Origin: Candidatus Nomurabacteria bacterium GW2011_GWB1_43_19
Lineage (GTDB): Bacteria > Patescibacteriota > Minisyncoccia > Phycocordibacterales > UBA9973
Assembly (NCBI GenBank): GCA_000999465.1
Contig: LCGB01000003.1
Location: 4,252 to 68,251 of the forward strand
Length of the DNA stretch: 64,000 nt
Reading direction: 5' to 3'
Shown here: positions 171-61,568 of the stretch, in pieces
How the letters are laid out: each line of letters begins with the position of its first letter
Numbering within the stretch: the stretch's first letter is position 1
Made by a program: the position numbers and the translations under genes
The notes under the pieces: generated by a model
Told to the model about the DNA's origin: nothing
The model's database searches: none
Seen by the model: the letters and a program-made list of their open reading frames with translations, nothing else

Positions 171-195
171 TTCCCCTATGTCAGACATAGGGGAA
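171..195. repeat. Palindromic element, ATGTCWGACAT family (single unit TTCCCCTATGTCAGACATAGGGGAA)
   Basis: Perfect 25-nt palindrome immediately after the rseP stop. It overlaps the annotated start of the M24 peptidase ORF. Confidence 0.8.
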
Positions 196-2733: not shown

Positions 2734-2746
2734 ATTTTATAAAAAT

Positions 2747-2780
2747 ACTTAAAACTCTGTGATAGCAGAAAATGTAACAA
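2747..2780 (+). promoter_or_regulatory. Conserved promoter/operator-like motif (copy 1), upstream of rpmG
   Basis: ACTTAAAACTCTGTGATAGCAGAAAATGTAACAA. A -35-like TTAAAA, then a conserved 17-nt spacer with a CTGYGATMGCMG dyad, then a -10-like element. Confidence 0.5.
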
Positions 2781-2816
2781 TTTGCTTTTTATAATTTTTT
2801 ATACTAATCTATGCAT

Positions 2817-5678: not shown

Positions 5679-5756
5679 AAAAACATATTTTGTTTTGCAC
5701 TTGATATAAACATAAATATCGATTTTTATTTTTTGGAAGTGTGCTAAAATGTACTC

Positions 5757-8241: not shown

Positions 8242-10542
8242 TTATTCAATTTTTTTAATTTTATGCGGATTATGCATTGGACAGCTTTTATTTGAGCAAC
8301 GTTCGGGAATTGTTTTTGTGCCTTCCATCATTAAACTGCCACATTTTTCGCATGTTCGGCCCGTCGGCTTGGCTTTGATTGCGAATTTACAGTCCGGATA
8401 GTTAGAGCAGGAATAAAAGATACCGAAACGTCCGCGCCGTTCGGAAATGTCGCCCTTCTTACATAAAGGGCAGGTGACACCAGTGCGTTTCCTCGCTTCC
8501 TCGGCCTCGTCTTTTTTTATGAATTTGCATTTCGGATAGCGCGAGCAAGCGATGAATGTGCCGGAGCCGTCACGCCTCTCTTTGATGACCAGCTTGCCGT
8601 GTTCCTTCTCCTTTTTTCCTCGCCTTGCCGAAGTCTCGGACGAAGGCAGGTCTCCGCACAAAGGGCACACCTCACCAGTTTCTTTGGGTCCCTCTAGTTC
8701 TTTTCCGTCCAGCATCAGCGCGCCGTCACAGTCGGGATATTTGGAGCAAGAGTAAAATTTTCCTCCGCGCGCAAGTTTGATTATCATCAAACTGCCGCAT
8801 TTTGGGCATTTGATGGTTTTTGGGGCGTCGCCCAGATTAGTCGCTTTTTCCAGTTTTTCTTTTGATTTAATGTCTTTGGAAAAAGGAATGTAAAAATCCT
8901 TCAGCGTTTTCTCGTATTCGCGTTCCCCGCGGGAAATTTCGTCAAGTTCGTCTTCCATTTCGGCGGTGAAAGTGTCGGAAATATAATTGGCAAAATGCTT
9001 TTCCAGAAAATCCGAGACCACTTCGCCGACATCAGTGGGAAATAATGTTTTGCTTTCTTTTTTTATATACCCGCGTTCTTCGATTGTCCGCATAATAGAC
9101 GCATAAGTGGAAGGCCGACCGATACCCCGCTGCTCAAGTTCTTTAATCAGTCCCGCTTCGCTGTATCTCTCCGGCGGTTCGGTAAATTTTTCCTCGCTGG
9201 AGAGACCAAGTAGTTTTAATTTTTCTCCCTCTTTACACAAAGGCAGTTCCACGTCATTCCCGCGGGCGCCTTGATCGACAGCCAGCCATCCCGGAAAAAG
9301 CAAGCGTGAGCCGTTGGCCCGGAAGTCCGGGATTTCCCCACATGTCAGACATGTGGGAACCACATGTCTGACATGTGGGAACTCAACACGGGCGGTAATT
9401 TTTGTCTTCAGCAGTTTCGCGTCGGCCATCTGCGAAGACACGGCGCGTTCCCAGATGAGGCGGTAGAGGTGGTCTTGATCGTCGTGGCTCGTGTGCAGTT
9501 TGTCTATATGGGTGGGCCGGATGGCTTCATGCGCTTCTTGGGCGTTTTTTGATTTTGTTTTGTAAATTCTTCCTTCGGCATATTCATTTCCGTATTCCTT
9601 TTTTACGAAAGACAAAATTTGGGCCCGCGCGGCGGCGGATAAATTGGTGCTGTCGGTTCTCATGTAAGTAATGTGTCCCGCCTCATAGAGTTTCTGAGCT
9701 ATCTGCATCGTGCGCGAAGGGGAGTAGCCCAGGCGCGAACTGGCGGTCTGCTGCAGAGTGGAAGTGGTGAAAGGCGCGCGCGGCGAATGTTTCTGTTCCG
9801 ATTCTTTGACTCCGCTTATCAGCCAGGCGCCGGATTTTCCCGCCTCCATTATTTTTTCTACCAGTTTTTCGTCCCGAGGTTCTTCCGAGCATTCTAGAGT
9901 AATTTTTTCTTCTCTTGCTGTTTCAAACAAGCCCAGAATTTTCCAGAATTTTTCCGGAATAAAAGCGCGGATTTCCCGCTCGCGTTCCATTATTATGCGG
10001 AGGGCAGGGGACTGGACTCGTCCGGCCGAGAGCCCGTACCTGACCTTTTTCCAGATAAGTCCCGAAAGGTCGTAGCCGACAAGGCGGTCAAGCACCCGGC
10101 GCGCCTCTTGCGCTTTGCGAAGAGCCGTATCAATTTTCCGCGGATGCTTTAACGCTTCTTCCACCGCTTCTTTGGTAACTTCATAAAAAGTCACCCGTTC
10201 TATCGGGGCCCTGATCTTTTTATCCTGCTTTAAGAGGGTTTCTATATGCCAAGCGATGGCTTCTCCTTCGCGGTCGGGATCGGTTGCCAGGATTATTTCA
10301 CCGGCTTTTTCGGCGAGCATTTGGAGTTCATGCACGATTTTTTCCTTGCCTCTCGAAATCTCATAATGTGGAATAAATCCGCCTTCTATGTCTATGGCTT
10401 TTTTGTTTGACTTCGGCAGGTCGCGGATGTGCCCGACGGATGCGCGCACGGTAAACTTGTCCGCTTTCAGGGCAGACCCGTCATTCAGATATTTTTCAAT
10501 AGTTTTCGCTTTCGACGGCGATTCCACAATCAATAACTTCAT
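8242..10542 (-). CDS. topA: DNA topoisomerase I with C-terminal multiple zinc ribbons
   Basis: Toprim N-terminus MKLLIVESPSKAKTIEKYL, active-site Tyr region GRPSTYAS and four C4 zinc-ribbon repeats. It carries an in-frame palindromic insert at 9334-9382. Confidence 0.95.
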   Translation of the reverse strand: MKLLIVESPSKAKTIEKYLNDGSALKADKFTVRASVGHIRDLPKSNKKAIDIEGGFIPHYEISRGKEKIVHELQMLAEKAGEIILATDPDREGEAIAWHIETLLKQDKKIRAPIERVTFYEVTKEAVEEALKHPRKIDTALRKAQEARRVLDRLVGYDLSGLIWKKVRYGLSAGRVQSPALRIIMEREREIRAFIPEKFWKILGLFETAREEKITLECSEEPRDEKLVEKIMEAGKSGAWLISGVKESEQKHSPRAPFTTSTLQQTASSRLGYSPSRTMQIAQKLYEAGHITYMRTDSTNLSAAARAQILSFVKKEYGNEYAEGRIYKTKSKNAQEAHEAIRPTHIDKLHTSHDDQDHLYRLIWERAVSSQMADAKLLKTKITARVEFPHVRHVVPTCLTCGEIPDFRANGSRLLFPGWLAVDQGARGNDVELPLCKEGEKLKLLGLSSEEKFTEPPERYSEAGLIKELEQRGIGRPSTYASIMRTIEERGYIKKESKTLFPTDVGEVVSDFLEKHFANYISDTFTAEMEDELDEISRGEREYEKTLKDFYIPFSKDIKSKEKLEKATNLGDAPKTIKCPKCGSLMIIKLARGGKFYSCSKYPDCDGALMLDGKELEGPKETGEVCPLCGDLPSSETSARRGKKEKEHGKLVIKERRDGSGTFIACSRYPKCKFIKKDEAEEARKRTGVTCPLCKKGDISERRGRFGIFYSCSNYPDCKFAIKAKPTGRTCEKCGSLMMEGTKTIPERCSNKSCPMHNPHKIKKIE
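9334..9382. repeat. Palindromic element, ATGTCWGACAT family, tandem pair inside topA CDS
   Basis: TTTCCCCACATGTCAGACATGTGGGAACCACATGTCTGACATGTGGGAA. In-frame in topA, where it translates as ...FPHVRHVVPTCLTCGEIP.... Confidence 0.8.
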
Positions 10543-16327: not shown

Positions 16328-16366
16328 TAATAGTATAATAGATACGGCCGCTACCATTATACTATT
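16328..16366. repeat. AT-flanked GCGGCCGC-core palindromic element (copy 1)
   Basis: AATAGTATAATAGATACGGCCGCTACCATTATACTATTA. Lies between the HIT gene and tRNA-Gln. Confidence 0.7.
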
Positions 16367-16449
16367 ACTAGCAAAATGCTGAATTATTCAAGAAAATATG
16401 TTAATCTGGAATTATCAAGTTTGAAAAGTAAATGATTTGTCCGTAAAGC

Positions 16450-16520: not shown

Positions 16521-16735
16521 CTTTGCGGATGAGTTGAAACTGTGAATCTTAGTTCGCCTGCCCGAAATGAATTTCATTAAACTTTTATTTTTAGTTCAAC
16601 TACAAAAGATTATTAAATTCCGAAGCGTTGAAGAAGGATAAGTTTGGGGTATAATATGGGTGCTCCGTAGTCTTGACGAAGGACACCAAGTCTTCCAGCC
16701 AGGTTTAAAAACTATATTTTTGATATAATTGCATC

Positions 16736-17194: not shown

Positions 17195-17249
17195 ATAAGT
17201 TCAAACTTCGCACCACACGCCCAACCAATGAATTTGATATAATCTAAAC

Positions 17250-17720: not shown

Positions 17721-17743
17721 ACTATATTAATACGGTTATTAAA

Positions 17744-17786
17744 TGTTATAAATTCTGCGATAGCAGAAATTGTAACAAAAAAATTA
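17744..17786 (+). promoter_or_regulatory. Conserved promoter/operator-like motif (copy 2), upstream of GNAT gene
   Basis: GTTATAAATTCTGCGATAGCAGAAATTGTAACAAAAAAATTA. Confidence 0.45.
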
Positions 17787-25900: not shown

Positions 25901-25994
25901 GGTAGTTATTATGGACAAAAGCAAGATAGTTGAGACCAATGTGAAAAAATTACACAAAATTTATCATAAATTTTCAAATGAAAACCGAAACTAA
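22980..25994 (+). CDS. purL: Phosphoribosylformylglycinamidine synthase, PurS-PurL fusion with in-frame Pro/Gly-rich insertion
   Basis: N-terminal PurS-like region (RIYVTPKGKADF...KPGVTDNAGHT), then PurL AIRS domains (VETHNSPSALDPFGGAITG, GKDSM). Residues ~606-640 are encoded by a GC-rich palindromic element. Confidence 0.85.
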   Translation: MISRIYVTPKGKADFINSYLIAHKFSKERIEKIAQALTNPVLENYSINEFPKTEKFSYAIEIGFKPGVTDNAGHTAEETIYDLFHIPSGVGHRDFGCPTPDGTLAVYTSKIFLIHEADRKEAEQIALSLHNPLIERSYIVSRKDLQKNKNLFLEAPRVILEKRVPVINISLDVLDDELVKIGQEGIRDEKGDRRGPLALDLASMKAIQEHFRKLKRNPTDIELESLAQTWSEHCKHTIFANPIDDIHDGLYKTYIKGATNLIRKNKGRRLGGASKNDFCVSVFSDNSGGIVFDKNYLITHKVETHNSPSALDPFGGAITGIVGVNRDTIGFGLGAKPVANVYGFCFGYPEDEQKFFKDKNMTQLMLPPKRIMKGVIKGINVGGNCSGIPTLSGFLKFDDRYRAKPLVFAGTVGIIPRKINGKFLHTKEAKAGDYIVMVGGRVGLDGIHGATFSSVAMDANSPATAVQIGDPITQKKLSDAIVKEARDMGLYNSITDNGAGGLSCSVAEMAKECGGAKVALEKVPLKYPGLCPWEIWISESQERMTLSVPKSKWKKFENLMESRGVEATVIGEFTKAEKCVVKYKGKKIMDIPMDFLHNGLPKHHLYTSPPASLLEPPYSPLSGGNHLPPLIRGGREGLEGMAERPGEIYTKDLENLLGNKNISGFSFVSEQYDHEVQASSVLKPLSGAGRINTDAQIFRPVLDSPKGVVLTSSAYPSYGDISAYNMAACAIDTAVRNIISAGGTLSHLAILDNFCWCSSNDPKRLGQLVGAVKACYDCAVGYGTPFISGKDSMFNDFKGYDERGNPVDISIPPTLLISAISVMPDLYKAVSPEFKKTGDIIYLLGETNDEMGGGEYLKSLGFVGNNTPKVDVKKNMRTYLALEKAIQEGLVSSSLSVTSGGLGIALAKAAVGGMMGCNISLSPIGKTYGVDVKLFSESQGRILVSVPSKNVSAFEKIIKNISFAKLGRVVGGGKVVIMDKSKIVETNVKKLHKIYHKFSNENRN
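24796..24900. repeat. GC-rich nested palindromic element inserted in frame in purL
   Basis: Core CCCCCTTATCAGGGGG...CCCCTGATAAGGGG, flanked by CCTCTCTCC.../...GGAGGTCGGGAGGGG. About 65% GC. Encodes TSPPASLLEPPYSPLSGGNHLPPLIRGGREGLEG within PurL. Confidence 0.7.
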
Positions 25995-26625
25995 ACAATG
26001 CCAAAACTGTCCCGATTTCTTAAATTTCAAGCAACAACTTCGCGGCTGCTATGGACTTCGTAAAAAGTCTTACTGCATTTTGAATAAACAATACAGTAAG
26101 GAAACATATGAGAATTTGAAAGAAAAAATAATTGAAAGGATGAGAGCTGGCAGAGAATGGGGACAATTCTTCCCCAAAAGCATGAGTCCTTTCGCTTACA
26201 ACGAAGCAATTGCGAATGAATATATGCCGCTTTCTAAAGAGAAAGCTGCTGTTCAGGGTTTTCGCTGGCAAGACGATATACCGAGCACCAAAGGGCAGGG
26301 AACTATGGATAATTCAAAATTACCCGAAAATCCTAATGAATATAATGATAATTTAACACAGGAGATATTAACTTGTGAAAAATGCGAAAAAAACTATAAA
26401 CTCATAAAAAGAGAGATTGGTTTTTACAAGAAGAATAAATTACTTCCTCCCCGTCAATGTTTCAATTGCCGGCACGCCCTGCGGATGAGCAAGCGCAATT
26501 CCAGAAATCTTTGGGAGGGTGTTTGCGCTAAATGTGGTAATGTAATACTTACCTCTTACAAACCTGAAGATCAAAAGATTTATAAACTTTACTGCGAAAA
26601 ATGTTATCAGCAAGAAGTATATTAA
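25978..26625 (+). CDS. Cysteine-rich multi-zinc-ribbon protein, short paralog (family member D)
   Basis: It shares CILNKQY[ST]KE.Y, SPFAYNE, the C-terminal zinc-ribbon module (CEKC..Y..I..E..FYKK...P.RQCFNCR) and the terminal YCEKCYQQEVY with the 34811, 50052 and 51402 ORFs. Confidence 0.6.
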   Translation: MKTETKQCQNCPDFLNFKQQLRGCYGLRKKSYCILNKQYSKETYENLKEKIIERMRAGREWGQFFPKSMSPFAYNEAIANEYMPLSKEKAAVQGFRWQDDIPSTKGQGTMDNSKLPENPNEYNDNLTQEILTCEKCEKNYKLIKREIGFYKKNKLLPPRQCFNCRHALRMSKRNSRNLWEGVCAKCGNVILTSYKPEDQKIYKLYCEKCYQQEVY

Positions 26626-26670
26626 TTATCTATACTTAAAACTTAGCCATGGCATAAATTTGAGTATATT

Positions 26671-28886: not shown

Positions 28887-29487
28887 ATTAAAATTAACGG
28901 TCCTTATTTCCAATACCGGCATCGGCACCAACCTAAGGGCGATAATTGACGGAGTTGCTAAAGGCAAGATAAAAGCAGAGATTGTGGCGGTGATTTCCGA
29001 TACGACCGAAGCGCTTGGGCTGGAACACGCCAGAAAACATAATTTGGAAATTGAAATATGCGAAAAAAAAGAGAATTTGTTGCCGCTTTTACAAAAATTA
29101 AATCCGGATTATGTGTGTTTAGCCGGCTGGAAGCAAATTATTCTGGATGAAGTTATCTTGACATATCCCAATAAAATTTTAAACCTGCATCCGGGACTGG
29201 TTCCGAACACCACAGACGGAAGCGTTGAAAATCCTGATGAAACAGAAGGACTTTGGAATAAGGGCATGTTGACCGATAAAGCGATTCAAAACTTTTTAAA
29301 TAAAAAAAACACTTTTGCTGGCTCTTCTATCCATTTTCTCACTTTAAATTTTGATTTTGGGCCGGTTTTAGGAAGAACTTTTGAAAAAATTAAAGTCAGT
29401 GATACAATTGCATCGTTGTATGGAAGGTTGAAGAAAAAAGAAAATCAATTATATGTGGAAGTTTTAGAAAAACTGACTAATACTTAA
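28870..29487 (+). CDS. purN: Phosphoribosylglycinamide formyltransferase
   Basis: VLISNTGIGTNLRAII and NLHPGL motifs. It has a longer C-terminal half than E. coli PurN. Confidence 0.85.
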   Translation: MFQENKLKLTVLISNTGIGTNLRAIIDGVAKGKIKAEIVAVISDTTEALGLEHARKHNLEIEICEKKENLLPLLQKLNPDYVCLAGWKQIILDEVILTYPNKILNLHPGLVPNTTDGSVENPDETEGLWNKGMLTDKAIQNFLNKKNTFAGSSIHFLTLNFDFGPVLGRTFEKIKVSDTIASLYGRLKKKENQLYVEVLEKLTNT

Positions 29488-29518
29488 AACTCTGCAATCG
29501 CCGAAATTTAAGTAAAAT
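29483..29518 (+). promoter_or_regulatory. Conserved promoter/operator-like motif (copy 3), 5 nt upstream of purD ATG
   Basis: ACTTAAAACTCTGCAATCGCCGAAATTTAAGTAAAAT. Confidence 0.5.
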
Positions 29519-34766: not shown

Positions 34767-34768
34767 AA

Positions 34769-34807
34769 ACTTATAACTCCGCTATCGCAGAAATATAAGT
34801 AAGTAAT
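34769..34807 (+). promoter_or_regulatory. Conserved promoter/operator-like motif (copy 4), upstream of Cys-rich gene A
   Basis: ACTTATAACTCCGCTATCGCAGAAATATAAGTAAGTAAT. Ends 3 nt before the ATG. Confidence 0.5.
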
Positions 34808-34810
34808 AAA

Positions 34811-36583
34811 ATGAAAGGGGAAAGCGAAAATAGAATACATTCAGTAGACTCAGTATCTACGACGTGCCAGAACTGCAAGGGTTCATTCACGATTGAGCCG
34901 GACGATTTCGGATTCTATGAAAAGATCAAGGTTCCGCCGCCAACTTTTTGTTTTGATTGCCGGCTACAAAGAAAACTAACTTTCGTCAACGAACGGGCGC
35001 TTTTTAAAAGAAAATGCGATAATTGCGGCAAAGACACCATAACAATGTATTCACCCAGAAACCCTTTTAGAGTTTTCTGCACTAGTTGTTACAATGATAG
35101 GAGAAACTGCCTGGAATACGGGATAGATTTAGATTTCTCAAAACATTTTCTCGCGCAATTTTATGAGCTTTTTAAAAAGGTCCCGCGGCTTCATTTGATG
35201 CACAAAAACAACAACGGCGAAGGGTGCGAGTATGCTAACCATATTTACCGCAGTCGTAGAGTTTATCTATCTTATACGATAGTAAAATCCGAAGACATTT
35301 ATTACTCCAAACAAGGCCTAGAGGGAAATAAAATTTGCTTAGATAGCTTTAATATGAAACATAGCGAGAGGGGTTATGAATTGGTCTATGTTTCAAGGGC
35401 CTATAATTCAAGATTTCTAATCCATTCTAGCCGTTGCATTGATAGTCAGTATCTTTTGCATTGCGGTGATTGTAATAATTGCTTCATGTCTCATAATCTC
35501 CGACATAAAAGCTATGTTTTTAGAAATCAACAATTGACTAGAGAAGAGTATTTCAAGGAGATGAAAAAAATTAAACTTGATTCCTATACCGAACAAGAAA
35601 AGTTAAAAAAAGAATTTTCTGAATTACCTAGAATGACAGGCCCAGCCCAAGTCAAGGCGGTTGTAAATGTAACCGGCGACTTTATTGGTCATTCAAAAAA
35701 CGCTAAATACTGTTTTAGCAATGTTGATACAGAAAATTCTAAATATATTGTTTTTGGTGTAAATACTATTCGAGATTGTTATGATCTAATGTTTGCTGGC
35801 CGGAGTGAACTTTGTTACGAATGTGCTGGTAGCGGCGCTCAAAATAATAATGTTTCTTTCTCTCTTGATATAGGAGCAAATCATGAGATTAATTATTGTA
35901 TTTCTACTAACAATTGCGGATACTGTTTTGGTTGTGTCGGTATAACCAATCAAAATTATTGCATTCTCAATAAACAGTACACCAAAGAAGAATACGAAAA
36001 GCTGGTGCCGAAAATTATTAAGCACATGAATCAAATGCCCTATGTGAGCAAAATAGGGAGGGTGTATAAATACGGCGAATTTTTTCCAGAAGAATTCTCA
36101 CCTTTCGCTTATAATGAAAGTTTGGCCTACGAAGAATTTTCAATGACGAAAGAAGAAGTTTTAAAAGAGGGCTACGAGTGGCGGGACTTGGAGGAGAAGC
36201 AGTATAAAACCACTATTGATAATAGAGATTTACCTGATAGTGTTAATGATGTCAAGGACAGTATTCTTGAAGAAGTAATTGCTTGTCCCAATCAGGGTCA
36301 GACCGAGACCAAGTGCACCTACGGCTTTAGAATTGTGCCAGATGAACTTAGATTTTATCGTTTAATGAAGATACCACTGCCTAGACTTTGTCCAAACTGC
36401 CGCTATTATGAACGTCGTAAGTGGCTTAACCCGTGGAAACTCTGGCATCGGCAATGTATGTGCAGTAAAAAGAATCACTTTCACGGAGTGGAAAAGTGTG
36501 AGGTGGAATTTGAGACGTCATACGCCCCGGAGAGGCCGGAAATTGTTTACTGCGAAAAATGCTACCAGGCGGAGATGTATTAA
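34811..36583 (+). CDS. Cysteine-rich multi-zinc-ribbon protein, long paralog (family member A)
   Basis: N-terminal CQNCKGSFTIEPDDFGFYEKIKVPPPTFCFDCRLQR, a second ribbon KRKCDNCGK...FCTSCY, a Cys-rich core (CIDSQYLLHCGDCNNC..., CYECAGSG...CGYCFGCVGITNQNYCILNKQYTKEEY), SPFAYNES, a C-terminal ribbon CPNCRYYERRKWLNPWKLWHRQCMC and terminal ETSYAPERPEIVYCEKCYQAEMY. No signal peptide or TM. Confidence 0.7.
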   Translation: MKGESENRIHSVDSVSTTCQNCKGSFTIEPDDFGFYEKIKVPPPTFCFDCRLQRKLTFVNERALFKRKCDNCGKDTITMYSPRNPFRVFCTSCYNDRRNCLEYGIDLDFSKHFLAQFYELFKKVPRLHLMHKNNNGEGCEYANHIYRSRRVYLSYTIVKSEDIYYSKQGLEGNKICLDSFNMKHSERGYELVYVSRAYNSRFLIHSSRCIDSQYLLHCGDCNNCFMSHNLRHKSYVFRNQQLTREEYFKEMKKIKLDSYTEQEKLKKEFSELPRMTGPAQVKAVVNVTGDFIGHSKNAKYCFSNVDTENSKYIVFGVNTIRDCYDLMFAGRSELCYECAGSGAQNNNVSFSLDIGANHEINYCISTNNCGYCFGCVGITNQNYCILNKQYTKEEYEKLVPKIIKHMNQMPYVSKIGRVYKYGEFFPEEFSPFAYNESLAYEEFSMTKEEVLKEGYEWRDLEEKQYKTTIDNRDLPDSVNDVKDSILEEVIACPNQGQTETKCTYGFRIVPDELRFYRLMKIPLPRLCPNCRYYERRKWLNPWKLWHRQCMCSKKNHFHGVEKCEVEFETSYAPERPEIVYCEKCYQAEMY

Positions 36584-36587
36584 CATA

Positions 36588-36626
36588 ACACAATTTCGCG
36601 ATCGCGAAATTGTGTTAAAAAATTAC
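36588..36626 (+). promoter_or_regulatory. Variant of the conserved motif as a perfect 28-nt palindrome downstream of Cys-rich gene A
   Basis: ACACAATTTCGCGATCGCGAAATTGTGTTAAAAAATTA. Compare copy 2: TCTGCGATAGCAGAAATTGTAACAAAAAAATTA. Confidence 0.45.
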
Positions 36627-36663
36627 ATCTACGTTAAAGTGTAGATACAAAAAACTGAAATAA

Positions 36664-36697
36664 CGCTATGGTAGCGGCCGCTACTATTGTATTATTA
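36664..36697. repeat. AT-flanked GCGGCCGC-core palindromic element (copy 2)
   Basis: CGCTATGGTAGCGGCCGCTACTATTGTATTATT. Lies downstream of Cys-rich gene A. Confidence 0.7.
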
Positions 36698-41144: not shown

Positions 41145-41192
41145 TCCATAAGTCAGACATATAGGGATTCCCACATGTCTGACTTATGGGAA
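41145..41192. repeat. Palindromic element, ATGTCWGACAT family, composite tandem pair upstream of rplI
   Basis: TCCATAAGTCAGACATATAGGGATTCCCACATGTCTGACTTATGGGAA. Lies between the ctpA stop and the rplI start. Confidence 0.75.
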
Positions 41193-41663: not shown

Positions 41664-41672
41664 ACGATGAAT

Positions 41673-41698
41673 AAAAAATCCCCATTCGGGGATTTTTT
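41673..41698. terminator. Bidirectional rho-independent terminator between rplI and rpmA
   Basis: AAAAAATCCCCATTCGGGGATTTTTT: a GC stem flanked by an A-run on one side and a T-run on the other. The flanking genes are convergent. Confidence 0.8.
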
Positions 41699-41700
41699 AT

Positions 41701-41973
41701 TCATATTATGTTTACTGTTTTTTTGACTATAATTCTGCCATGGAAGGAGGTCTTGCGCTTGGAACCGAATTTGACGGTGCCATCTTTTAGGGAAAAAAGG
41801 GTATGGTCCCGGCCGGTTGATACGTTATTACCCGCCATAATGGGCGTTCCGCGCTGGCGGACGATAATAGACCCGGACTGGGCCTTTTGGCCGTCGGCCA
41901 GCTTAATACCGAGGTATTTTGGGTTTGAGTCCCTTAAGTTTTTGGCGGTACCGCCGGCTTTTCTATGTGCCAT
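41701..41973 (-). CDS. rpmA: 50S ribosomal protein L27
   Basis: [24 protein letters not shown]...GRDHTLF is the L27 signature. Confidence 0.9.
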
Positions 41974-45778: not shown

Positions 45779-45821
45779 AGTGCCATTTTAGCACTTATTT
45801 CCTTATTTTGAAAATTAAAAA

Positions 45822-49121: not shown

Positions 49122-49175
49122 AGGATGAGTATAGCATTTTTTGATTAAAATGCATCCGTGTGTTATTGTCTTTAA

Positions 49176-49988
49176 GTGAATAATCTAACTTTCAAACACA
49201 TATTGCCGGTCGCCGTATTAATCCTGCTATGTATTCCGATAGCGACTTCTTCGCTTCTGGACTTGGAGCAAAAAAGAGAAAATGAATTGCTTTTGGAGCA
49301 AGAGCGGATTCAAAAAGAGGCCGAATTGAAAATTTACCTGATGGGTAAATTTGAACCGGCAGAAAGGAAGGATTTTTCCTTGATACCCGAGAAATACAAT
49401 GTCGGAGGATACGGGATGTATTTACGGACGGAAACCCTGGATGCATTCTCGCAGATGGCGAACCAAGCGGAGCAAGACGGGGTAAATTTAAGAATCGCTT
49501 CCGCCACCCGGAACTTTACCTATCAAAAAAGCATCTGGGAAAACAAGTGGACCGGTGTGGCCTATGTGGACGGAGAAAATCTTACGAAAAGCATTCCGAA
49601 TGGACTGGAAAGGTTCAAAAAGATATTGGAATATAACTCCGTTCCGGGCATTTCGCGCCATCATTGGGGTACCGATATAGATATCAATAACGCGAACCTC
49701 TCGTATTTCGGGACGAAAGAAGGTAAAAAGGTGTATGAGTGGCTGGTAAATAATGCTTGGATGTTCGGCTTTTGCCAGCCCTATAATTTAAAAGGGAGCG
49801 AACGGCTGACCGGCTACAATGAAGAAAAATGGCATTGGTCCTATCTTCCACTTGCCCAAAATTTTACGCAAGAATATAAAAATTTAATCAAGACAGAAGA
49901 CATCAACGGCTTCCTGGGCGCTGAATATGGTCCGGGAATAAATTTAATCAGCGACTACGTCCTCGGAATTAATCCGGAGTGCCTCTAA
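49176..49988 (+). CDS. M15 family D-alanyl-D-alanine carboxypeptidase (VanY-like)
   Basis: Signal peptide plus SRHHWGTDIDI and a W..NAW.FGF tail, typical of M15B peptidases. Confidence 0.75.
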   Translation: MNNLTFKHILPVAVLILLCIPIATSSLLDLEQKRENELLLEQERIQKEAELKIYLMGKFEPAERKDFSLIPEKYNVGGYGMYLRTETLDAFSQMANQAEQDGVNLRIASATRNFTYQKSIWENKWTGVAYVDGENLTKSIPNGLERFKKILEYNSVPGISRHHWGTDIDINNANLSYFGTKEGKKVYEWLVNNAWMFGFCQPYNLKGSERLTGYNEEKWHWSYLPLAQNFTQEYKNLIKTEDINGFLGAEYGPGINLISDYVLGINPECL

Positions 49989-50008
49989 TCTACGCTATGG
50001 CGTAGATT
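49987..50008 (+). terminator. Hairpin after M15 peptidase gene
   Basis: AATCTACGCTATGGCGTAGATT is followed by a T-rich tract. Confidence 0.5.
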
Positions 50009-50012
50009 GATT

Positions 50013-50051
50013 TATGTTATCACTTTTGGACGGCCGTCAAATTTGATAACA
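50013..50051. repeat. Conserved 3' block of Cys-rich paralogs (copy at gene B) containing palindrome TTTGACGGCCGTCAAA
   Basis: TTATCACTTTTGGACGGCCGTCAAATTTGATAACATTAA is near-identical to 51362-51401 downstream of gene C. Confidence 0.75.
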
Positions 50052-51356
50052 TTAATACATCTCTGCCTGGTAGCACTTTTCGCAATATACAATTTCCGGC
50101 CTATCCGGAGCATAAGAGGTCTCAAATTCCACCGGGCACCTTGCCCCGCCCTGGCGCGGGTCCCCCGCCCCGTGGAAATGATTTTCTTTCTTACACATAC
50201 ATGAACGGTGCCAAAGTTTGAAAGGGTTGGTTCGTTTAACCCGCGCCTGGTGCCGGCAATGAAAACATCTCCTCGGAATAGGTATGTTCATTTTCTTATA
50301 AAAATTCAGTTCGTTCGAGACAATCTTGTAATTTCTCTTGCAGTTTGTGCACGCCAAAATTTCTTCCAGAATTGAATCGCCGACATCATCGATTGATTCG
50401 GGAATTTTTCCCGGCAATAAAGTTTCTTTGCCGGTAGTTTTTTGTATGTTGTTTTGCCAATTATACCCCGCTTCATTTGCTTCTTTTTTCGCAAGCGGAA
50501 ATTGTTCCATAGCGCAAGATTCGTTATAGCCGAAATATGAAAGTTCTACCGGAAAATATTCCCCGTATGAATACTTATTACCTTTTTTATCTAAAAAAGG
50601 CATGGTATCCATGTGCTCCATAATTTTAGGCATAAGTTCCCCATATTGTTCTTTGGTATATTGTTTATTAAAAATGCAATAATTCGTATTGCGTAGCCCC
50701 ACACAGCCGAAAACATGCTTGCAGTTGTGGCAATCGTAAAGAAATTGCGAGTCAACGCAGGCCAAGCAGATTTCCGAATATTTGGTCTGATATGACTTAC
50801 TACAAAGAATGCATTCATATATCCAATTGCTCTCTGACCGGATATTCATGCAGTCCACAATATCTTTGCCTTTCAATATGAAGAAGCTGTACATGACATT
50901 TTCCACGTACCATCCGGAAAAGCACATATAGCAATTCTTGGAAAACCACCAGTCGTGGGTGTATTCGCAGTTCAAGCTGGCAATCCCGTCGTCATTAACA
51001 ATTGCCATGTGCGGGACTCTTTTCATCAACTCAATGAATTGGGCAAAAAATGGCTTTGAAAAATCATAGTCAACCCCGTAACTTTTCGGATCCCATTTAT
51101 CACTCCACCAGCATTTATTGCAGTACACAATAATCCCGGAATCCGGATGGTAAATGGAAATAATTCCTTTGCCGCACAGGTCACATTTGCGATTATAAAG
51201 GGACATATTGTTCCTCCAGGCCCAACGCCTCTGCCTCCGGCAGTCCGGACAAAAGGTTGGCGGGGGAACCTTTATTTTCTCGTAAAATCCGAAATCATCC
51301 GGTTCTATAGTAAAATTCTTTTTGCAATTAACACAATTTTTTATATCCTGTTTCAT
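50052..51356 (-). CDS. Cysteine-rich multi-zinc-ribbon protein, paralog (family member B)
   Basis: Same modules as the 34811 ORF: CVNCKKNFTIEPDDFGFYEKIKVPPPTFCPDCRRQRR ... CVDSQFLYDCHNCKHVFGCVGLRNTNYCIFNKQYTKEQY ... CTNCKRNYKIV..FYKKMNIPIPRRCFHCR ... ETSYAPDRPEIVYCEKCYQAEMY. Confidence 0.7.
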   Translation of the reverse strand: MKQDIKNCVNCKKNFTIEPDDFGFYEKIKVPPPTFCPDCRRQRRWAWRNNMSLYNRKCDLCGKGIISIYHPDSGIIVYCNKCWWSDKWDPKSYGVDYDFSKPFFAQFIELMKRVPHMAIVNDDGIASLNCEYTHDWWFSKNCYMCFSGWYVENVMYSFFILKGKDIVDCMNIRSESNWIYECILCSKSYQTKYSEICLACVDSQFLYDCHNCKHVFGCVGLRNTNYCIFNKQYTKEQYGELMPKIMEHMDTMPFLDKKGNKYSYGEYFPVELSYFGYNESCAMEQFPLAKKEANEAGYNWQNNIQKTTGKETLLPGKIPESIDDVGDSILEEILACTNCKRNYKIVSNELNFYKKMNIPIPRRCFHCRHQARVKRTNPFKLWHRSCMCKKENHFHGAGDPRQGGARCPVEFETSYAPDRPEIVYCEKCYQAEMY

Positions 51357-51361
51357 TTTAT

Positions 51362-51401
51362 TTATATTATCACTTTTGGACGGCCGTCAAATTTGATAAC
51401 A
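51362..51401. repeat. Conserved 3' block of Cys-rich paralogs (copy at gene C) containing palindrome TTTGACGGCCGTCAAA
   Basis: Same sequence as 50013-50051. It directly abuts the start codon of gene B. Confidence 0.75.
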
Positions 51402-53132
51402 TTAATACACTTCTGCCTGATAGCATTTCTCGCAGTATATGATTTCCGGTCGGTTGGGGGCGTAGGATGTTTCAAATTTGTTAAGGCAACCCTTTTTCAT
51501 ACATTTGCGGTGCCAGAGTTTACGTGGGTTACGCAAGACAAACCTGTCTTGTCTGCGACATGAAAAACATTTTTCTGGAATAGGTAGGTTGAGTATTTTG
51601 CATAATGAAAGTTCTAAAGGAATAATTTTGAAAGCGGTTATGCATAAGGGATATTTTTCTTTTTCACTGGAGGAGTTTTGTGAAGAGCATTGAATTGTTT
51701 CTTTTGCAAGATTTTCCTTTATATCGCTAAAAGTTTTCGGCAGATTTTTAGTCAGAAGCGTTATTTGATAATCGCGGGGTGGCCGGTCATACCAGGTGTA
51801 ACCCTTTTTAAGGACTTCATTTTTGGTTAGGGGGAAATAATCTTGCGCCATTGACTCGTTGTAGGCAAACGGTGAGACCCGCGCCGGGAAATATTCCCCC
51901 CATTCCTTTGTCTTCCTCATGTGCTCAATTATCTCACTTTTGAGTTTGGTATATTGCTCCTTTGTGTATTGCTTGTTTAATATGCAGTATTGCCCTTTTT
52001 TAAGACCAAAACATCCAAAACAATTATCCGTTGTAAAGCACATATCGCAGTAACATGAATCCGTTATGCTGTTAAAACAACTTCTGATAAACATTGACCG
52101 GTGCGGCGACTCAACCCCTTGAACTTCATACGATAATTCACCAATAATTACTTCCGTGCAATCCTGACAATCAGCCGTCTTAAACCACACATCTTGCATA
52201 TACGCAGTATCTTTAAGAAGATGACAATTAAATACACGTCGTGCTCGTTGCGTACTTCCTATATAATCTCCTGTCGAATTTTGAATTTTTGAACCATGAT
52301 AATATTTTACCGGAGTACTAATGTTAAGTTCCATAACTTTTTTTTTCGATTCTTCTATGGAACTCCTATTAAATGAAAATTTTTTTAATTTTTCTTCATA
52401 TTGCGTTTTTGTAAGAGCTTTATTAAACCAATAATACTGCCTCTTGCGGAGACCCACACATCCAAAACAATTCAAACATCCCCTACAATCAATACAAAAT
52501 TCAAGTCCGACAGAATCAAAACAATCTTGACACCATACACATTTAGAACACCTTGCAATATTCATACATTCATAACAAAACTCACTTTTAAAGGCCATGT
52601 AGCAGTCGCTTAAAAAGTGACTGTCATGACACCAGCTTCCATACATACACTTTTCATTTGAGCCGCTGGTAACCAGCATATAACACTCCTTGTTGTCCTG
52701 AGACTGGTTTGTGTACTCGCTGTTAACGCTGTTTGAATTAACCATCGCCAGATGTGGCACTTCACGGCGAAGCTCTTCATACTGTTCAAAAAAGGACCGG
52801 CTAAAATCAAAGTCTCGCCCGTAATCCTTGGCATCAAAGGCGTCGGATTTCCAATATTCCTGCTCATACACCGAGAATGGAGCATCTGGGCGATAAATAG
52901 AAATAATGTCTTTTCCTGTAGCGTCGCATTTTCTTTTATAAAAGTTATATTCGTTTCTGTCTAACAAGCGCCTGATGTATCGACAATCCGGGCAAAAGGT
53001 TGGCGGGGGAACCTTTATTTTCTCGTAAAATCCGAAATCATCCGGCTCGATTATAAAATTGCCCTTACAATTCTGACACACCACATTTTGTGATTTATAT
53101 TCCATAACTTTTTTGTCCCGATTCTGATTCAT
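51402..53132 (-). CDS. Cysteine-rich multi-zinc-ribbon protein, paralog (family member C)
   Basis: N-terminal CQNCKGNFIIEPDDFGFYEKIKVPPPTFCPDCRYIRR. The core is richer in CxxC (CSKCVWCQDCFDSVGLEFCIDCRGCLNCFGCVGL; CYCDMCFTTDNCFGCFGL...CILNKQYTKEQY). Also SPFAYNES and C-terminal ETSYAPNRPEIIYCEKCYQAEVY. Confidence 0.7.
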   Translation of the reverse strand: MNQNRDKKVMEYKSQNVVCQNCKGNFIIEPDDFGFYEKIKVPPPTFCPDCRYIRRLLDRNEYNFYKRKCDATGKDIISIYRPDAPFSVYEQEYWKSDAFDAKDYGRDFDFSRSFFEQYEELRREVPHLAMVNSNSVNSEYTNQSQDNKECYMLVTSGSNEKCMYGSWCHDSHFLSDCYMAFKSEFCYECMNIARCSKCVWCQDCFDSVGLEFCIDCRGCLNCFGCVGLRKRQYYWFNKALTKTQYEEKLKKFSFNRSSIEESKKKVMELNISTPVKYYHGSKIQNSTGDYIGSTQRARRVFNCHLLKDTAYMQDVWFKTADCQDCTEVIIGELSYEVQGVESPHRSMFIRSCFNSITDSCYCDMCFTTDNCFGCFGLKKGQYCILNKQYTKEQYTKLKSEIIEHMRKTKEWGEYFPARVSPFAYNESMAQDYFPLTKNEVLKKGYTWYDRPPRDYQITLLTKNLPKTFSDIKENLAKETIQCSSQNSSSEKEKYPLCITAFKIIPLELSLCKILNLPIPEKCFSCRRQDRFVLRNPRKLWHRKCMKKGCLNKFETSYAPNRPEIIYCEKCYQAEVY

Positions 53133-54570: not shown

Positions 54571-54615
54571 CCTTGTATATTAGCATTTTTTAAGGAAAAA
54601 GATATAATAAAACTC

Positions 54616-60331: not shown

Positions 60332-60574
60332 CCCATTAGAAAATTTAAATAATAAAACTTATTTTTATACAAGTCCGCTGATTTTCTAACGGGACAAGTA
60401 TTGAAATATTTTAGCACAAAATCAAAAGAAAAACAGCCTAAATAAAGGTGGGGCTGATCGCGATAGTCCGCGAACAGCCCCAAAAACGATGCGGTGGGCC
60501 AAGTCGCACTACCTTTCAAGCCCTAACTAAACTAAACCATTCCCCACACGGGCATCACCTCCCTTCAAGGTGAT

Positions 60575-60625
60575 AAAAAGAACAAACACCAGCTAGAGGG
60601 CTGGTGTTTGGGTTGTAGTTTATTT
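60575..60625. terminator. Bidirectional terminator-like hairpin
   Basis: CACCAGCTAGAGGGCTGGTG is followed by TTTGGGTTGTAGTTTATTTT on the plus strand. On the minus strand it is followed by TTTGTTCTTTTTATC. Confidence 0.55.
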
Positions 60626-60745
60626 TAGTTAGTTTTTACAGCGCAAAGATCAGCTCTCTAATTTGAGGGCTGAAAAAGAAAACATTGCTGATTTGCATTA
60701 TATTTTTGTTCACTTGCACCTTTTGTTTCATTGCTTCAAATCATA

Positions 60746-60780
60746 ATAATATAATAGCAGCGGCCGCTTTTATTATACTA
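60746..60780. repeat. AT-flanked GCGGCCGC-core palindromic element (copy 3)
   Basis: ATAATATAATAGCAGCGGCCGCTTTTATTATACTA, immediately after the trpA stop. Confidence 0.7.
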
Positions 60781-60788
60781 TTTAGGTA

Positions 60789-61568
60789 TTAATAATTTAA
60801 GTTCTTTAAGAAATTAATCAGGGTTTGGGGATTGTTTGTGTTTGATTTTTGAATCAGCTTAATTAAGCTGCTCCCGATGATTACCCCGTCAGCCCCGTTT
60901 ATTTTTAGTTTTTTAACTTGAGATAAATTTGATATTCCGAATCCCACGGCAATAGGTAGCCTGGTCTGCCGTTTTATTTGTTTAATATATTGCAATGTCT
61001 TTCTGGGTATATCCTTCTGAGTCCCTGTAATTCCCACCACAGAGGTCAGATAAAGATATCCTTGAGCAACTTTGGTAATTTTATTTAGCCGGCGCGGAGT
61101 AGTCGTAGTTGCAATCAAATAAATATTATCAATATTGTATTTCTTAGCTGCTTTCAAAAATATGCTTATTTCTTCAAAAGGCACATCGGGAATTAAGACG
61201 CCGTCTATACCAGCATTACGCGCATCGCGGTAGAATTTTTCTATTCCACGCTGATATACTAAATTTGCATACACTAAGACCGTAATGGGGATTTCGGTGG
61301 TTAGTCTAAGATTTTTAATGAGTTCAAATACTTTGCTTGTTGTTGAACCGGCTTTAAGGGCAACCTGATCCGCTTTTTGTATTACGGGTCCATCCGCCAA
61401 AGGATCGGAATAAGGAAAACCGATTTCCAACAGGTCGGAATGTTGAGAAAGAACTTTTAATATTTTTAACGACTGGCTAAAATTAGGAAATCCCGCAACT
61501 AAAAATGGCATCATGGCCAGTTTCCCTTCTTTTTTTATATGTGTAAATGCGGTTTCGATTCTGTTCAT
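60789..61568 (-). CDS. trpA: Tryptophan synthase alpha chain
   Basis: FLVAGFP, the active-site region [13 protein letters not shown] and the GFGIS phosphate loop. Confidence 0.9.

What the first reader, a model, noticed from the sequence alone, without database searches (positions are those of the whole stretch)
50013..51401. Conserved stop-codon-proximal palindromes shared by the Cys-rich paralogs
Genes B and C each end with ...TGCTAYCAGGCAGARRTGTATTAA. This is followed by the identical 3' block TGTTATCAAATTTGACGGCCGTCCAAAAGTGATAA (minus-strand sense), which carries the perfect 16-nt palindrome TTTGACGGCCGTCAAA. The block after gene C abuts gene B's start codon. Gene A ends with the same peptide, then a different perfect 28-nt palindrome (ACACAATTTCGCGATCGCGAAATTGTGT). 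These are not intrinsic terminators of the usual kind: the stem is perfect with no loop and no U-tract. A conserved dimeric-protein binding site or RNA processing site at the 3' end of each paralog is more likely.
Basis: seen in the sequence. Interest (0 to 1): 0.5.

Follow-up and report, generated by a model that had tools for sequence, protein, structure and literature searches.

The report
Palindromic promoter–hairpin cassette after Cys-rich genes
The repeats after these cysteine-rich genes are real, but they belong to a family of short quasi-palindromic spacer elements in a tiny uncultured bacterium (Nomurabacteria) that most likely cap one gene's message and carry the start signal for the next gene; this is a compact variant of known signals rather than a new kind of system.

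Summary
The 35-nt block is present twice and is identical in both copies. The gene-A palindrome is real and is 32 nt long. The claimed "perfect 16-nt palindrome" is a misreading: the sequence is TTTGACGGCCGTCCAAA, with an extra C. The block is the core of a 39-nt quasi-palindrome whose 9-bp outer arms are ATGTTATCA and TGATAAYAT.

The same block occurs in at least 8 other Paceibacteria assemblies. It nearly always lies 0-3 nt after the stop codon of a family gene or of a decayed remnant, even where the paralogs are only 35-48% identical. Its 3' arm, TGATAAYAT, matches the extended -10 motif TGnTAnnnT. In these genomes that motif peaks sharply 15-17 nt before start codons, which implies leaderless mRNAs. 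In all 8 copies followed by a gene, the arm sits at -14 to -17.

Two contigs with identical coding sequence carry different palindromes from the third stop-codon base onward, so the slot turns over quickly. Related hairpins follow unrelated genes and a fourth paralog.

Best reading (confidence 0.45): a palindromic terminator/promoter spacer cassette with REP-like turnover. An operator for an unknown regulator is not excluded. The result is moderately interesting and is a new variant of a known kind.

The parts
51364..51402 (-). Block copy 1: a 39-nt quasi-palindrome between gene C and gene B. The identical 35-nt core is 51367-51401.
   Evidence: Exact repeat. Fold: 9-bp outer stem, 2x2 loop, inner stem with bulged C; -11.4 kcal/mol, z = -3.2. 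CM R1 score 73 bits.
51364..51372 (-). TGATAATAT, an extended -10-like element (TGnTAnnnT) in the 3' arm. It lies 7 nt before gene B's ATG (51354-51356), implying a leaderless promoter for gene B.
   Evidence: TGnTAnnnT peaks at -15/-16/-17 before start codons: 7+2 of 63 genes in the window, and 29+7+2 of 142 in related loci. Gene B is listed at -16.
50014..50052 (-). Block copy 2, after gene B at a convergent junction with vanY. There is no downstream gene, so it is probably a relic or a hairpin only.
   Evidence: (-12.7 kcal/mol, z = -3.8). Homology with copy 1 continues 10 nt past the block and stops where the ATG would be.
49987..50008 (-). Hairpin 2 (type II): AATCTACGCCATAGCGTAGATT, between gene B and the convergent vanY.
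   Evidence: The same palindrome type follows family-gene stops in W_A, L009 and L073.
36586..36617 (+). Gene A hairpin 1: a perfect 32-nt palindrome, homologous column by column to the block but without a -10 motif.
   Evidence: -19 kcal/mol, z = -6.3. Alignment to the B/C flanks. The 88% ortholog L066 has an imperfect version.
36627..36646 (+). Gene A hairpin 2 (type II): ATCTACGTTAAAGTGTAGAT.
   Evidence: Absent from the close relative L066.
36668..36687 (+). Gene A hairpin 3: a GTAGCGGCCGCTAC palindrome followed by a T-rich tail, which makes it terminator-like.
   Evidence: Absent from L066.
51402..53132 (-). Gene C, a Cys-rich family member of 576 aa.
   Evidence: The AlphaFold2 model is a beta-solenoid plus zinc ribbons. 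No Pfam, NCBIfam or PDB match.
50052..51356 (-). Gene B, an internally shortened paralog of 434 aa.
   Evidence: Identity is 48% to C and 47% to A.
34811..36583 (+). Gene A, a 590-aa paralog and the last gene of the purine-biosynthesis cluster.
25978..26625 (+). Gene D, a fourth, truncated paralog of 215 aa that ends ...CEKCYQQEVY*.
26632..26669 (+). Hairpin W9, after gene D: ACTTAAAACTTAGCCATGGCATAAATTTGAGT.
34767..34804 (+). Hairpin W4, between purB and gene A: ACTTATAACTCCGCTATCGCAGAAATATAAGT.
29480..29517 (+). Hairpin W3, between purN and purD. Its 5' arm contains the purN stop codon.
17743..17780 (+). Hairpin W2, after an unrelated 156-aa gene: AATGTTATAAATTCTGCGATAGCAGAAATTGTAACA. Its arms resemble those of the block.
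2745..2782 (+). Hairpin W1, after a racemase gene at a convergent junction.

Best explanation
The block is the core of a roughly 39-nt quasi-palindromic spacer cassette that is physically tied to the 3' ends of the Cys-rich gene family in Nomurabacteria/Paceibacteria.

Shown:
- It is conserved almost base for base across species and across deeply diverged paralogs.
- It starts 0-3 nt after the stop codon.
- Its 3' arm TGATAAYAT is an instance of the genome's dominant promoter signal, the extended -10 TGnTAnnnT placed so that 5-8 nt separate it from the ATG. Wherever a gene follows, the arm sits at that distance.
- The slot is exchanged between near-identical strains.

Inferred:
- The 3' arm fires a leaderless transcript of the downstream gene (gene B here).
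- The inverted repeat folds into a stem-loop on the upstream mRNA. That stem-loop would act as a U-tract-less terminator, insulator or 3'-end protector, so that each tandem paralog is its own transcription unit.
- Because both arms read TGATAAC outward, the cassette works in either orientation.
- The copy after gene B is a promoter-less relic or plain 3' hairpin.
- The perfect palindrome after gene A is a diverged homolog that was 'corrected' to perfection and lost the -10.
- Turnover occurs by short-patch gene conversion anchored in the conserved ...CYQxEVY* codons and by quasi-palindrome template switching. This gives the elements REP-like dynamics.
For: 1. Exact duplication and fold.
2. Cross-species conservation. 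The block is found in L005/L062, L037, L044, L048 (two copies), L049, L052, L053, L057 and L067. Of 11 distinct copies (W_C, W_B, L005/L062, L037, L044, L048a, L048b, L049, L052, L053, L057; L067 is counted separately), 9 abut a family stop codon or a relic of the last codons. In the context-blind metagenome scan the figure is 5 of 7 Paceibacteria hits.
3. The paralogs that carry it are only 35-48% identical, yet the B and C copies match 35/35, and L048a differs from the window copy by 1 nt in 38.
4. Promoter statistic. TGnTAnnnT peaks at -15 (29 of 142 genes), -16 (7) and -17 (2) in related loci, and at -15 (7) and -16 (2) of 63 genes in the window. The block arm sits at -16 (gene B, L005, L048a), -17 (L037, L044, L052), -15 (L053, tgt) and -14 (L048b). 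This includes two non-family downstream genes and two flipped copies.
5. The other members of the hairpin family covary: 9 of 13 pairs change on both sides, 89% of cells are paired, and 0 of 500 shuffles reach this.
6. All family-type hairpins lie at co-directional or convergent junctions and none at a divergent junction.
7. Turnover. L066 and L067 have identical CDS (1457/1457 nt) but different palindromes from the third stop-codon base onward. W has two extra hairpins relative to L066. L053 has the block at the mreC|tgt junction, where L074 has two family genes. L071 and W_A are 'perfected' in opposite directions.
8. Frames differ between copies (TAA, then 0 or 1 nt, then the block), so the block is not coding.
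Against: - There is no U-tract, and the stems are weak in several orthologs (-5 to -7 kcal/mol), so terminator activity is unproven.
- There is no covariation within the block set.
- The sense/antisense wobble test is inconclusive.
- Three copies (W_B, L057, L049) have no gene to drive.
- The TTGACG in the centre is only 15 nt from the -10, and -35 boxes are weak in these genomes, so conservation of the centre and the 5' arm is not explained by the promoter alone.
- Intergenic spacers are so short here that closeness to the next ATG is partly trivial: W3, W4 and W9 are equally close without a -10 motif.
- Conservation in the metagenome hits is partly imposed by the search pattern.
- No transcript data exist.
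Confidence: 0.45

Rival explanations
1. The block is an operator. A dimeric or tetrameric DNA-binding regulator recognises the central palindrome TTGACGGCCGTCAA and/or the half-sites TGTTATCA and TGATAACA. It overlaps the leaderless promoter and controls the downstream paralog.
For: - Sequence-level conservation without covariation.
- The centre is retained even where the arms have decayed (L029).
- The element tolerates flipping (L052, L053), as a symmetric site would.
- Another palindrome type found after family stops (ACTTTAGTTAACTAAAGT) also occurs in tandem next to a Trp_repressor-family gene in a divergent promoter region (L041). It resembles the E. coli trp operator ACTAGTTAACTAGT (sequence co-cited with trp repressor in PMC2504314).
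- In L068/L069 an ArsR/SmtB-type HTH gene overlaps the start of a family gene.
Against: - No regulator gene is linked to any block copy.
- No Fur-, ArsR- or TrpR-like protein was found among the 20 window ORFs that were scanned against Pfam for this purpose.
- The half-site is not enriched outside the blocks: 0.35 per kb in intergenic sequence against 0.20 per kb in coding sequence, and nearly all intergenic hits are the blocks themselves.
- Three copies lie at convergent junctions and none at a divergent one.
- A 21-bp spacer between half-sites is unusual for a dimer.
- The slot is freely replaced by unrelated palindromes in near-identical strains.
Confidence: 0.2
2. The elements are purely RNA-level 3' stem-loops. 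They would act as a factor-dependent or U-tract-less terminator, an exonuclease block like REP stabilisers, or an RNase III processing site. They would have no promoter role, and the -10 match would be a coincidence of AT-rich arms.
For: - All members lie 0-22 nt downstream of a stop codon, in sense orientation, including at convergent junctions.
- The wider family covaries.
- Gene A's version keeps the hairpin but not the -10.
- Family 3' flanks fold better than those of other genes: 44% against 17% reach -10 kcal/mol or lower, p = 4e-4.
- Several copies sit inside the pur operon, where only an intercistronic RNA role makes sense.
Against: - Block orthologs do not compensate their substitutions, and some fold at only -5 kcal/mol.
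- The exact -14 to -17 placement of TGnTAnnnT in 8 of 8 gene-preceding copies, including flipped copies and non-family downstream genes, is hard to ascribe to chance.
- Perfect palindromes can arise by template switching without selection.
Confidence: 0.2
3. The elements are selfish or neutral small palindromic repeats, REP/MITE-like. They would spread by an unknown transposition mechanism or by gene conversion, prefer the conserved ...TAYTAA end of the family genes, and have no function for the host.
For: - The same sequence is found at non-orthologous loci and in different species, while different palindromes occupy orthologous sites.
- There is a presence/absence and replacement polymorphism between contigs with identical CDS.
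- Copies occur in both orientations.
- TAA/TAAG is found on both sides of several copies.
Against: - Copy number is low: 2 blocks and 6 related hairpins in 64 kb. CM searches of about 300 kb found no further copies.
- No transposase or RAYT-like gene was seen near any copy.
- No block was found in viral contigs.
- The flanking 'duplications' are not independent and are trivial in AT-rich DNA.
- The conserved asymmetry and promoter spacing argue for host use.
Confidence: 0.15

Closest known systems
REP/BIME elements of enterobacteria (repetitive extragenic palindromes)
   Same: Both are imperfect palindromes of 35-40 nt. Both are extragenic, often lie just after stop codons or between cistrons, form sequence families shared between related species, occur in either orientation, and show rapid gain and loss. 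REPs are thought to stabilise upstream mRNA.
   Different: Copy number here is very low, and there is a strong preference for one gene family. The 5' GTAG/GTGG signature is absent, and no RAYT transposase was seen. The arms carry a promoter motif, which REPs do not.
Correia (CREE) elements of Neisseria
   Same: Both are small elements bounded by inverted repeats whose ends create outward-facing -10 promoters. Both fold into hairpins in read-through RNA, and Correia hairpins are RNase III targets or terminators.
   Different: Correia elements are 100-155 bp with 26-bp terminal repeats and a TA target duplication, and they number in the hundreds per genome. The block is 39 nt and shows no clear target duplication.
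Intrinsic (Rho-independent) terminators, including bidirectional ones
   Same: Both are stem-loops directly downstream of a stop codon, found at co-directional and convergent junctions.
   Different: The block has no U-tract, an AT-rich outer stem with an internal loop and a bulge, and a primary sequence conserved across species. Canonical terminators with T-tracts exist elsewhere in the same window (for example 41667-41704).
Extended -10 (TGnTATAAT) promoters driving leaderless mRNAs, as described in Actinobacteria, Deinococcus and others
   Same: The motif is TGnTAnnnT, it ends 6-7 nt before the ATG, there is no Shine-Dalgarno sequence, and the -35 is weak.
   Different: Here the -10 is embedded in one arm of a conserved inverted repeat that begins at the previous gene's stop codon.
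Integron attC sites
   Same: Both are imperfect palindromes at the 3' end of each gene in a tandem array. Both have an outer stem, an unpaired spacer, an inner stem with an extrahelical base, and a variable centre.
   Different: The polarity of the conserved arms is opposite: 5'-GTTATCA...TGATAAC-3' here against 5'-RYYYAAC...GTTRRRY-3' in attC. The length is 39 nt against 57-141 nt. No integrase was seen.
CIRCE / HrcA operator
   Same: Both are conserved inverted repeats with a spacer that could act both as DNA (operator at a promoter) and as RNA (hairpin).
   Different: The sequence and spacing are unrelated, and no cognate repressor was identified.

Membership tests
Intrinsic terminator | Stable G+C-rich stem-loop directly downstream of a gene | tested here: inconclusive
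   Gene A's hairpin folds at -19 kcal/mol (z = -6.3). The block folds at -11 to -13 kcal/mol with an AT-rich outer stem, an internal loop and a bulge. Orthologs fall as low as -5 kcal/mol.
Intrinsic terminator | U-tract immediately 3' of the stem | tested here: not met
   The stems are followed by AUAAAUAAAAUG, AUAAAUCAAUC and AAAAAAUUAC. The consensus scan does not call them.
Sigma-70 extended -10 promoter (leaderless type used in this genome) | TGnTAnnnT motif | tested here: met
   The arm reads TGATAATAT or TGATAACAT in both window copies and in most orthologs. Exceptions are L053 (TGATAACAA) and L049 (TGATAACCA).
Sigma-70 extended -10 promoter (leaderless type used in this genome) | Position relative to the start codon matches the genome-wide peak | tested here: met
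   The genome-wide peak is at -15/-16/-17. The block arm is at -14 to -17 in all 8 copies that precede a gene.
Sigma-70 extended -10 promoter (leaderless type used in this genome) | Mapped transcription start | not testable with these tools
   No transcript data are available.
REP elements | Imperfect palindrome of 20-40 nt, extragenic, in multiple dispersed copies | tested here: inconclusive
   Size and extragenic position are met. Only 2 block copies and 6 related hairpins occur in 64 kb, and no extra copies were found in about 300 kb of related loci.
REP elements | Conserved 5' GT[A/G]G head and an associated RAYT (Y1 transposase); this definition is recalled from the literature | tested here: not met
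   The block starts with TGTTATCA. No Y1-transposase family appears in any locus gene table. Whole genomes were not scanned.
Integron attC | R'' RYYYAAC ... R' GTTRRRY core sites with that polarity, and length 57-141 bp | tested here: not met
   The arms read 5'-GTTATCA...TGATAAC-3' on both strands, and the length is 39 nt.
Integron attC | Integron integrase (IntI) nearby | not tested
   Only part of the window's ORFs were scanned against Pfam.
Transcription-factor operator | Palindromic site with a cognate regulator, recurring in promoter regions of a regulon | tested here: inconclusive
   The site is palindromic and conserved in sequence. No regulator was identified, no copies lie in divergent promoter regions, and 3 lie at convergent junctions.
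Described RNA family (Rfam 15) | Match at or near the gathering score | tested here: not met
   In the whole window only tRNAs reach the gathering score. E-value searches of both regions give only chance hairpin hits at 13-21 bits against cut-offs of 37-130 bits.

The most novel reading that the evidence does not exclude
The block and its sister palindromes are portable, orientation-independent 'promoter-hairpin' modules specific to Patescibacteria. They are actively moved, by site-specific insertion or targeted conversion at the TAYTAA stop region, among members of a Cys-rich beta-solenoid gene family. This creates and dissolves independent leaderless transcription units in tandem paralog arrays. 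That would be a new class of miniature mobile regulatory element in ultra-small genomes, possibly bound by a dedicated regulator.
Probability: 0.12. Interest if true: 0.65.

Novelty: new variant of a known kind. Interest (0 to 1): 0.36.

Why it matters
Gene regulation in Candidate Phyla Radiation bacteria is almost unstudied because they are uncultured. This locus gives three concrete, testable pieces of information.
1. These genomes appear to use extended -10 promoters placed 6-7 nt before the ATG, which implies leaderless mRNAs.
2. A 45-nt spacer can hold both a 3' stem-loop and the next promoter within a single palindrome.
3. Such palindromes are exchanged between near-identical strains at the exact stop-codon boundary.

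The locus also flags a very large, uncharacterised Cys-rich beta-solenoid/zinc-ribbon family (more than 8000 database hits) with rapid birth and death of tandem copies. If the palindromes turn out to be mobile or regulator-bound, they would be a handle on how reduced genomes rewire transcription units.

Tried and rejected
- **Read-through or overlapping ORF** (TAA TGT TAT CAA ATT TGA, and the 37-aa +1-frame ORFs): rejected. The offset between stop codon and block varies by 0-3 nt among orthologs, so no frame is conserved.
- **Known RNA family**: none found.
- **attC site**: rejected on arm polarity and length.
- **Zur/Fur-box idea** (ATGTTAT/ATAACAT half-sites next to Zn-rich proteins): no Fur-family gene among the window ORFs that were scanned, half-sites 23 nt apart, and no enrichment elsewhere.
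- **-35 role for the central TTGACG**: the spacer is 15 nt, and -35 boxes are weak in 52 predicted promoters.
- **Wobble-asymmetry test for the transcribed strand**: inconclusive (3 G·U against 3 A·C outside the internal loop).
- **The family protein as the mobilising enzyme or binder**: the AlphaFold2 model (pLDDT 81) matches only beta-solenoids. There is no nuclease, recombinase or HTH fold.
- **Phage origin**: the single viral-contig hit is a chance match inside a coding region.
- **Assembly chimera for L067**: judged unlikely. The record name suggests a k=141 assembly, in which a chimeric join would need a shared 140-mer that the paralog 3' ends do not have. This is inference, not a test.
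- **CM R2 for the generic hairpins**: it found no new members outside its training set, so the 'genome-wide' extent beyond this window is unknown.
Full report
**Source and genes.** The window comes from a Candidatus Nomurabacteria (Patescibacteria/CPR) population. Gene B's product is identical to a protein of GCA_001786405.1 and of several metagenome contigs. There are four genes of the Cys-rich family in the window, not three:
- A: 34811-36583 (+), 590 aa.
- B: 50052-51356 (-), 434 aa.
- C: 51402-53132 (-), 576 aa.
- D: 25978-26625 (+), 215 aa. This is a truncated paralog that ends ...LYCEKCYQQEVY*.

**Check of the observation.**
- The 35-nt block is present twice and is identical in both copies.
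- The shared C-terminal codons are there.
- The gene-A palindrome is real. It is a perfect 32-mer and by far the longest in the window.
- The 'perfect 16-nt palindrome' is not in the sequence. An extra C makes it TTTGACGGCCGTCCAAA, and only GACGGCCGTC is perfect.

**Relation between the three flanks.** In an alignment of the 3' ends, B's coding end is A-like, its block is identical to C's, and the following hairpin (ATCTACG..GTAGAT) is again A-like. Gene A's palindrome aligns column by column with the block (AATTT-core-AAA-GTG). In A the internal loop is closed and the bulge is removed. 'Hairpin 1' is therefore one homologous slot in all three genes.

**Relatives elsewhere.**
- The block recurs after family genes in L005/L062 (76% ortholog of C), in L037 (70% ortholog of B, between tandem paralogs), and in L044, L048 (twice), L052, L057 and L067. 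It also occurs in L049 and L053.
- The metagenome scan was blind to gene context. Of its 7 Paceibacteria-type hits, 5 abut a family stop codon or a short relic of the last codons, such as ..QEMY* in L048a and ..IENCYKQEVY* in L057.
- The one clear non-family site is L053, between mreC and tgt. A related species has two family genes at exactly that junction (L074), so it looks like a leftover.
- Within the block set nothing covaries. The sequence is simply conserved, although 7 of the 10 sequences were found with a pattern that fixes both arms.
- L052, L053 and L029 carry the element flipped.
- The offset to the stop codon varies by 0-3 nt, so the block is not coding.

**Not private to the family.** The same window holds sequence-related hairpins:
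- after a racemase gene (2745-2782),
- after an unrelated 156-aa gene (17743-17780, with arms AATGTTAT.../...GTAACA like the block),
- between purN and purD (29480-29517),
- between purB and gene A (34767-34804),
- after paralog D (26632-26669).

Together with gene A's palindrome and two copies from other genomes, they align without gaps. They show 9 of 13 pairs with changes on both sides and 89% pairing, which 0 of 500 shuffles reach. I selected these sequences as hairpins, so the test is not blind. Two further conserved palindrome types also sit at family 3' ends in several species:
- ATCTACGyCATrGCGTAGAT in W_A, W_B, L009 and L073.
- ACTTTAGTTAACTAAAGT in L012, L029 and L038.

Family 3' flanks fold better than those of neighbouring genes: 44% against 17% reach -10 kcal/mol or lower, p = 4e-4. 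This is partly because many other genes have no spacer at all.

**Promoter signal.**
- In this window and in 18 related loci, the extended -10 motif TGnTAnnnT piles up at one position before start codons. In the related loci it is at -15 in 29 of 142 genes, at -16 in 7 and at -17 in 2. In the window it is at -15 in 7 and at -16 in 2 of 63 genes. Other positions show only scattered single hits.
- No Shine-Dalgarno sequence is visible at these genes. The predominant architecture is therefore a leaderless mRNA starting at or next to the ATG. This is inference from position; no TSS data exist.
- The block's 3' arm TGATAAYAT is such a motif. It sits at -16 before gene B, at -16 in L005 (before a peptidase gene) and L048a, at -17 in L037, L044 and L052, at -15 in L053 (before tgt), and at -14 in L048b. 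That is every copy followed by a gene, including flipped copies and two non-family genes.
- The -35 region is weak genome-wide, and the central TTGACG lies 15 nt from the -10. The promoter alone therefore does not explain why the centre and the 5' arm are conserved.

**Turnover.**
- L066 and L067 encode the same A-type protein with 1457/1457 identical nucleotides and 300 identical upstream bases. From the third base of the stop codon onward, L066 has an A-type quasi-palindrome and L067 has the block.
- The window has about 75 nt, containing two extra hairpins, that L066 lacks.
- At the orthologous junction between the family gene and the convergent vanY, three species have three different palindromes.
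- L071 and W_A are 'perfected' to opposite halves of the quasi-palindrome. This is what template-switch correction of quasi-palindromes produces (established mutational mechanism). It means that perfect symmetry and covariation here need not reflect selection.
- The family itself shows internal-deletion relics, such as the L029 mini-gene and C-terminal 'echoes' in Peribacteria loci.

**Interpretation.** The best-supported reading is a palindromic spacer cassette.
- The 3' arm is the -10 of a leaderless promoter for the next gene.
- The inverted repeat gives the upstream mRNA a terminal stem-loop, acting as an insulator, terminator or stabiliser.
- The element is inherited with family 3' ends and exchanged among them.
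- The copy after gene B lies at a convergent junction, and its homology to the C copy ends where the ATG would be. That copy and gene A's palindrome are promoter-less relatives.

I give this reading 0.45. Three rivals remain and overlap with it:
- An operator for an unidentified regulator (0.2). This is helped by the sequence conservation and by the TrpR-like and ArsR-like links of sister loci. It is hurt by the lack of any linked regulator and by the junction statistics.
- A purely RNA-level hairpin (0.2).
- A functionless REP/MITE-like repeat (0.15).

**Comparison with known systems.** The element works most like a cross between a REP or Correia-type small palindromic element and an extended -10 leaderless promoter.
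- It fails the defining tests for a canonical intrinsic terminator (no U-tract), for attC (arm polarity and length) and for RAYT-linked REPs (no GTAG head, no transposase seen).
- It matches no Rfam family.
- No paper in the searchable library describes such elements in Patescibacteria.

I rate it a new variant of a known kind, of moderate interest.

Noticed in passing
window 25978-26625 (+): A fourth, truncated member of the Cys-rich family (215 aa). It consists of about 12 N-terminal residues fused to the C-terminal module. It lies between purL and purQ and overlaps purL's end by 17 nt. Gene A is the last gene of the same purine-biosynthesis cluster.
   Followed up: partly
window-wide, e.g. 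5742-5750, 16721-16729, 17235-17243, and 45785-45793, 49128-49136, 54577-54585 on the - strand: The extended -10 motif TGnTAnnnT sits exactly 15-16 nt before many start codons that lack a Shine-Dalgarno sequence. The same is true in 18 related Paceibacteria loci (38 of 142 genes at -15 to -17). This suggests that leaderless transcription is the main mode in these genomes.
   Followed up: yes
window 171-195, 9335-9381, 41146-41172; L037 13556-13602: There is another conserved palindrome family, TTCCCCnnnGTCnGACnnnGGGGAA, sometimes in tandem. One copy lies inside or next to coding sequence, and one follows a family gene in L037.
   Followed up: no
window 16335-16372, 36664-36690, 60795-60830: These hairpins have a GCGGCCGC/ACGGCCG centre and arms containing TATAAT/ATTATA (AGTATAAT...ATTATACT). 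One lies in a divergent region upstream of a tRNA gene, so this type is not simply a terminator.
   Followed up: no
L041/L042 596-631; L012 2467-2502; L029 4216-4233; L038 9076-9093; L052 3993-4010: An 18-nt palindrome, ACTTTAGTTAACTAAAGT, resembles the E. coli trp operator core ACTAGTTAACTAGT. It occurs in tandem directly upstream of a Trp_repressor-family gene, where it supplies that gene's TGCTAAAGT -10 at position -15. It also occurs right after, or in one case before, family genes in four other genomes.
   Followed up: partly
L068 554-826, L069 172-444: A 90-aa ArsR/SmtB-type HTH_5 gene (a family of metal-sensor repressors) overlaps by 4 nt the start of an A-type family gene. This hints that the Cys-rich proteins are metal-related and regulated in some lineages.
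   Followed up: no
L029 4240-4345; L022, L023, L030, L034 (about 50-100 nt after family stops): The family shows decay products. L029 has a mini-gene in which about 22 N-terminal codons are joined to the last 15 codons. Peribacteria loci have short 'echoes' encoding ..GEECYLKEVY* about 70 nt after the real stop. These imply frequent internal deletions between CxxC-coding repeats.
   Followed up: partly
window 60332-60788: This is a 457-nt ORF-free spacer with several strong G+C-rich hairpins (e.g. 60449-60482 and 60583-60610). It has no Rfam match at E <= 0.01 and no tmRNA call. It may be an unannotated structured RNA.
   Followed up: partly
L046 682-718, L055 134-169, L059/L060 around 1187-1240: Non-Paceibacteria contigs, some phage- or plasmid-like, carry clusters of TGTTATCA/TGATAACA half-sites, including a perfect 20-nt palindrome TGTTATCAAATTTGATAACA. 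These are probably operators or iterons of unrelated systems.
   Followed up: no
window 49122-49175: The 54-nt divergent spacer between mraY and vanY is one long inverted repeat (GGATG...GCATTTT..AAAATGC..CATCC) that contains both -10 elements. The vanY promoter sequence is conserved across at least 5 species.
   Followed up: no
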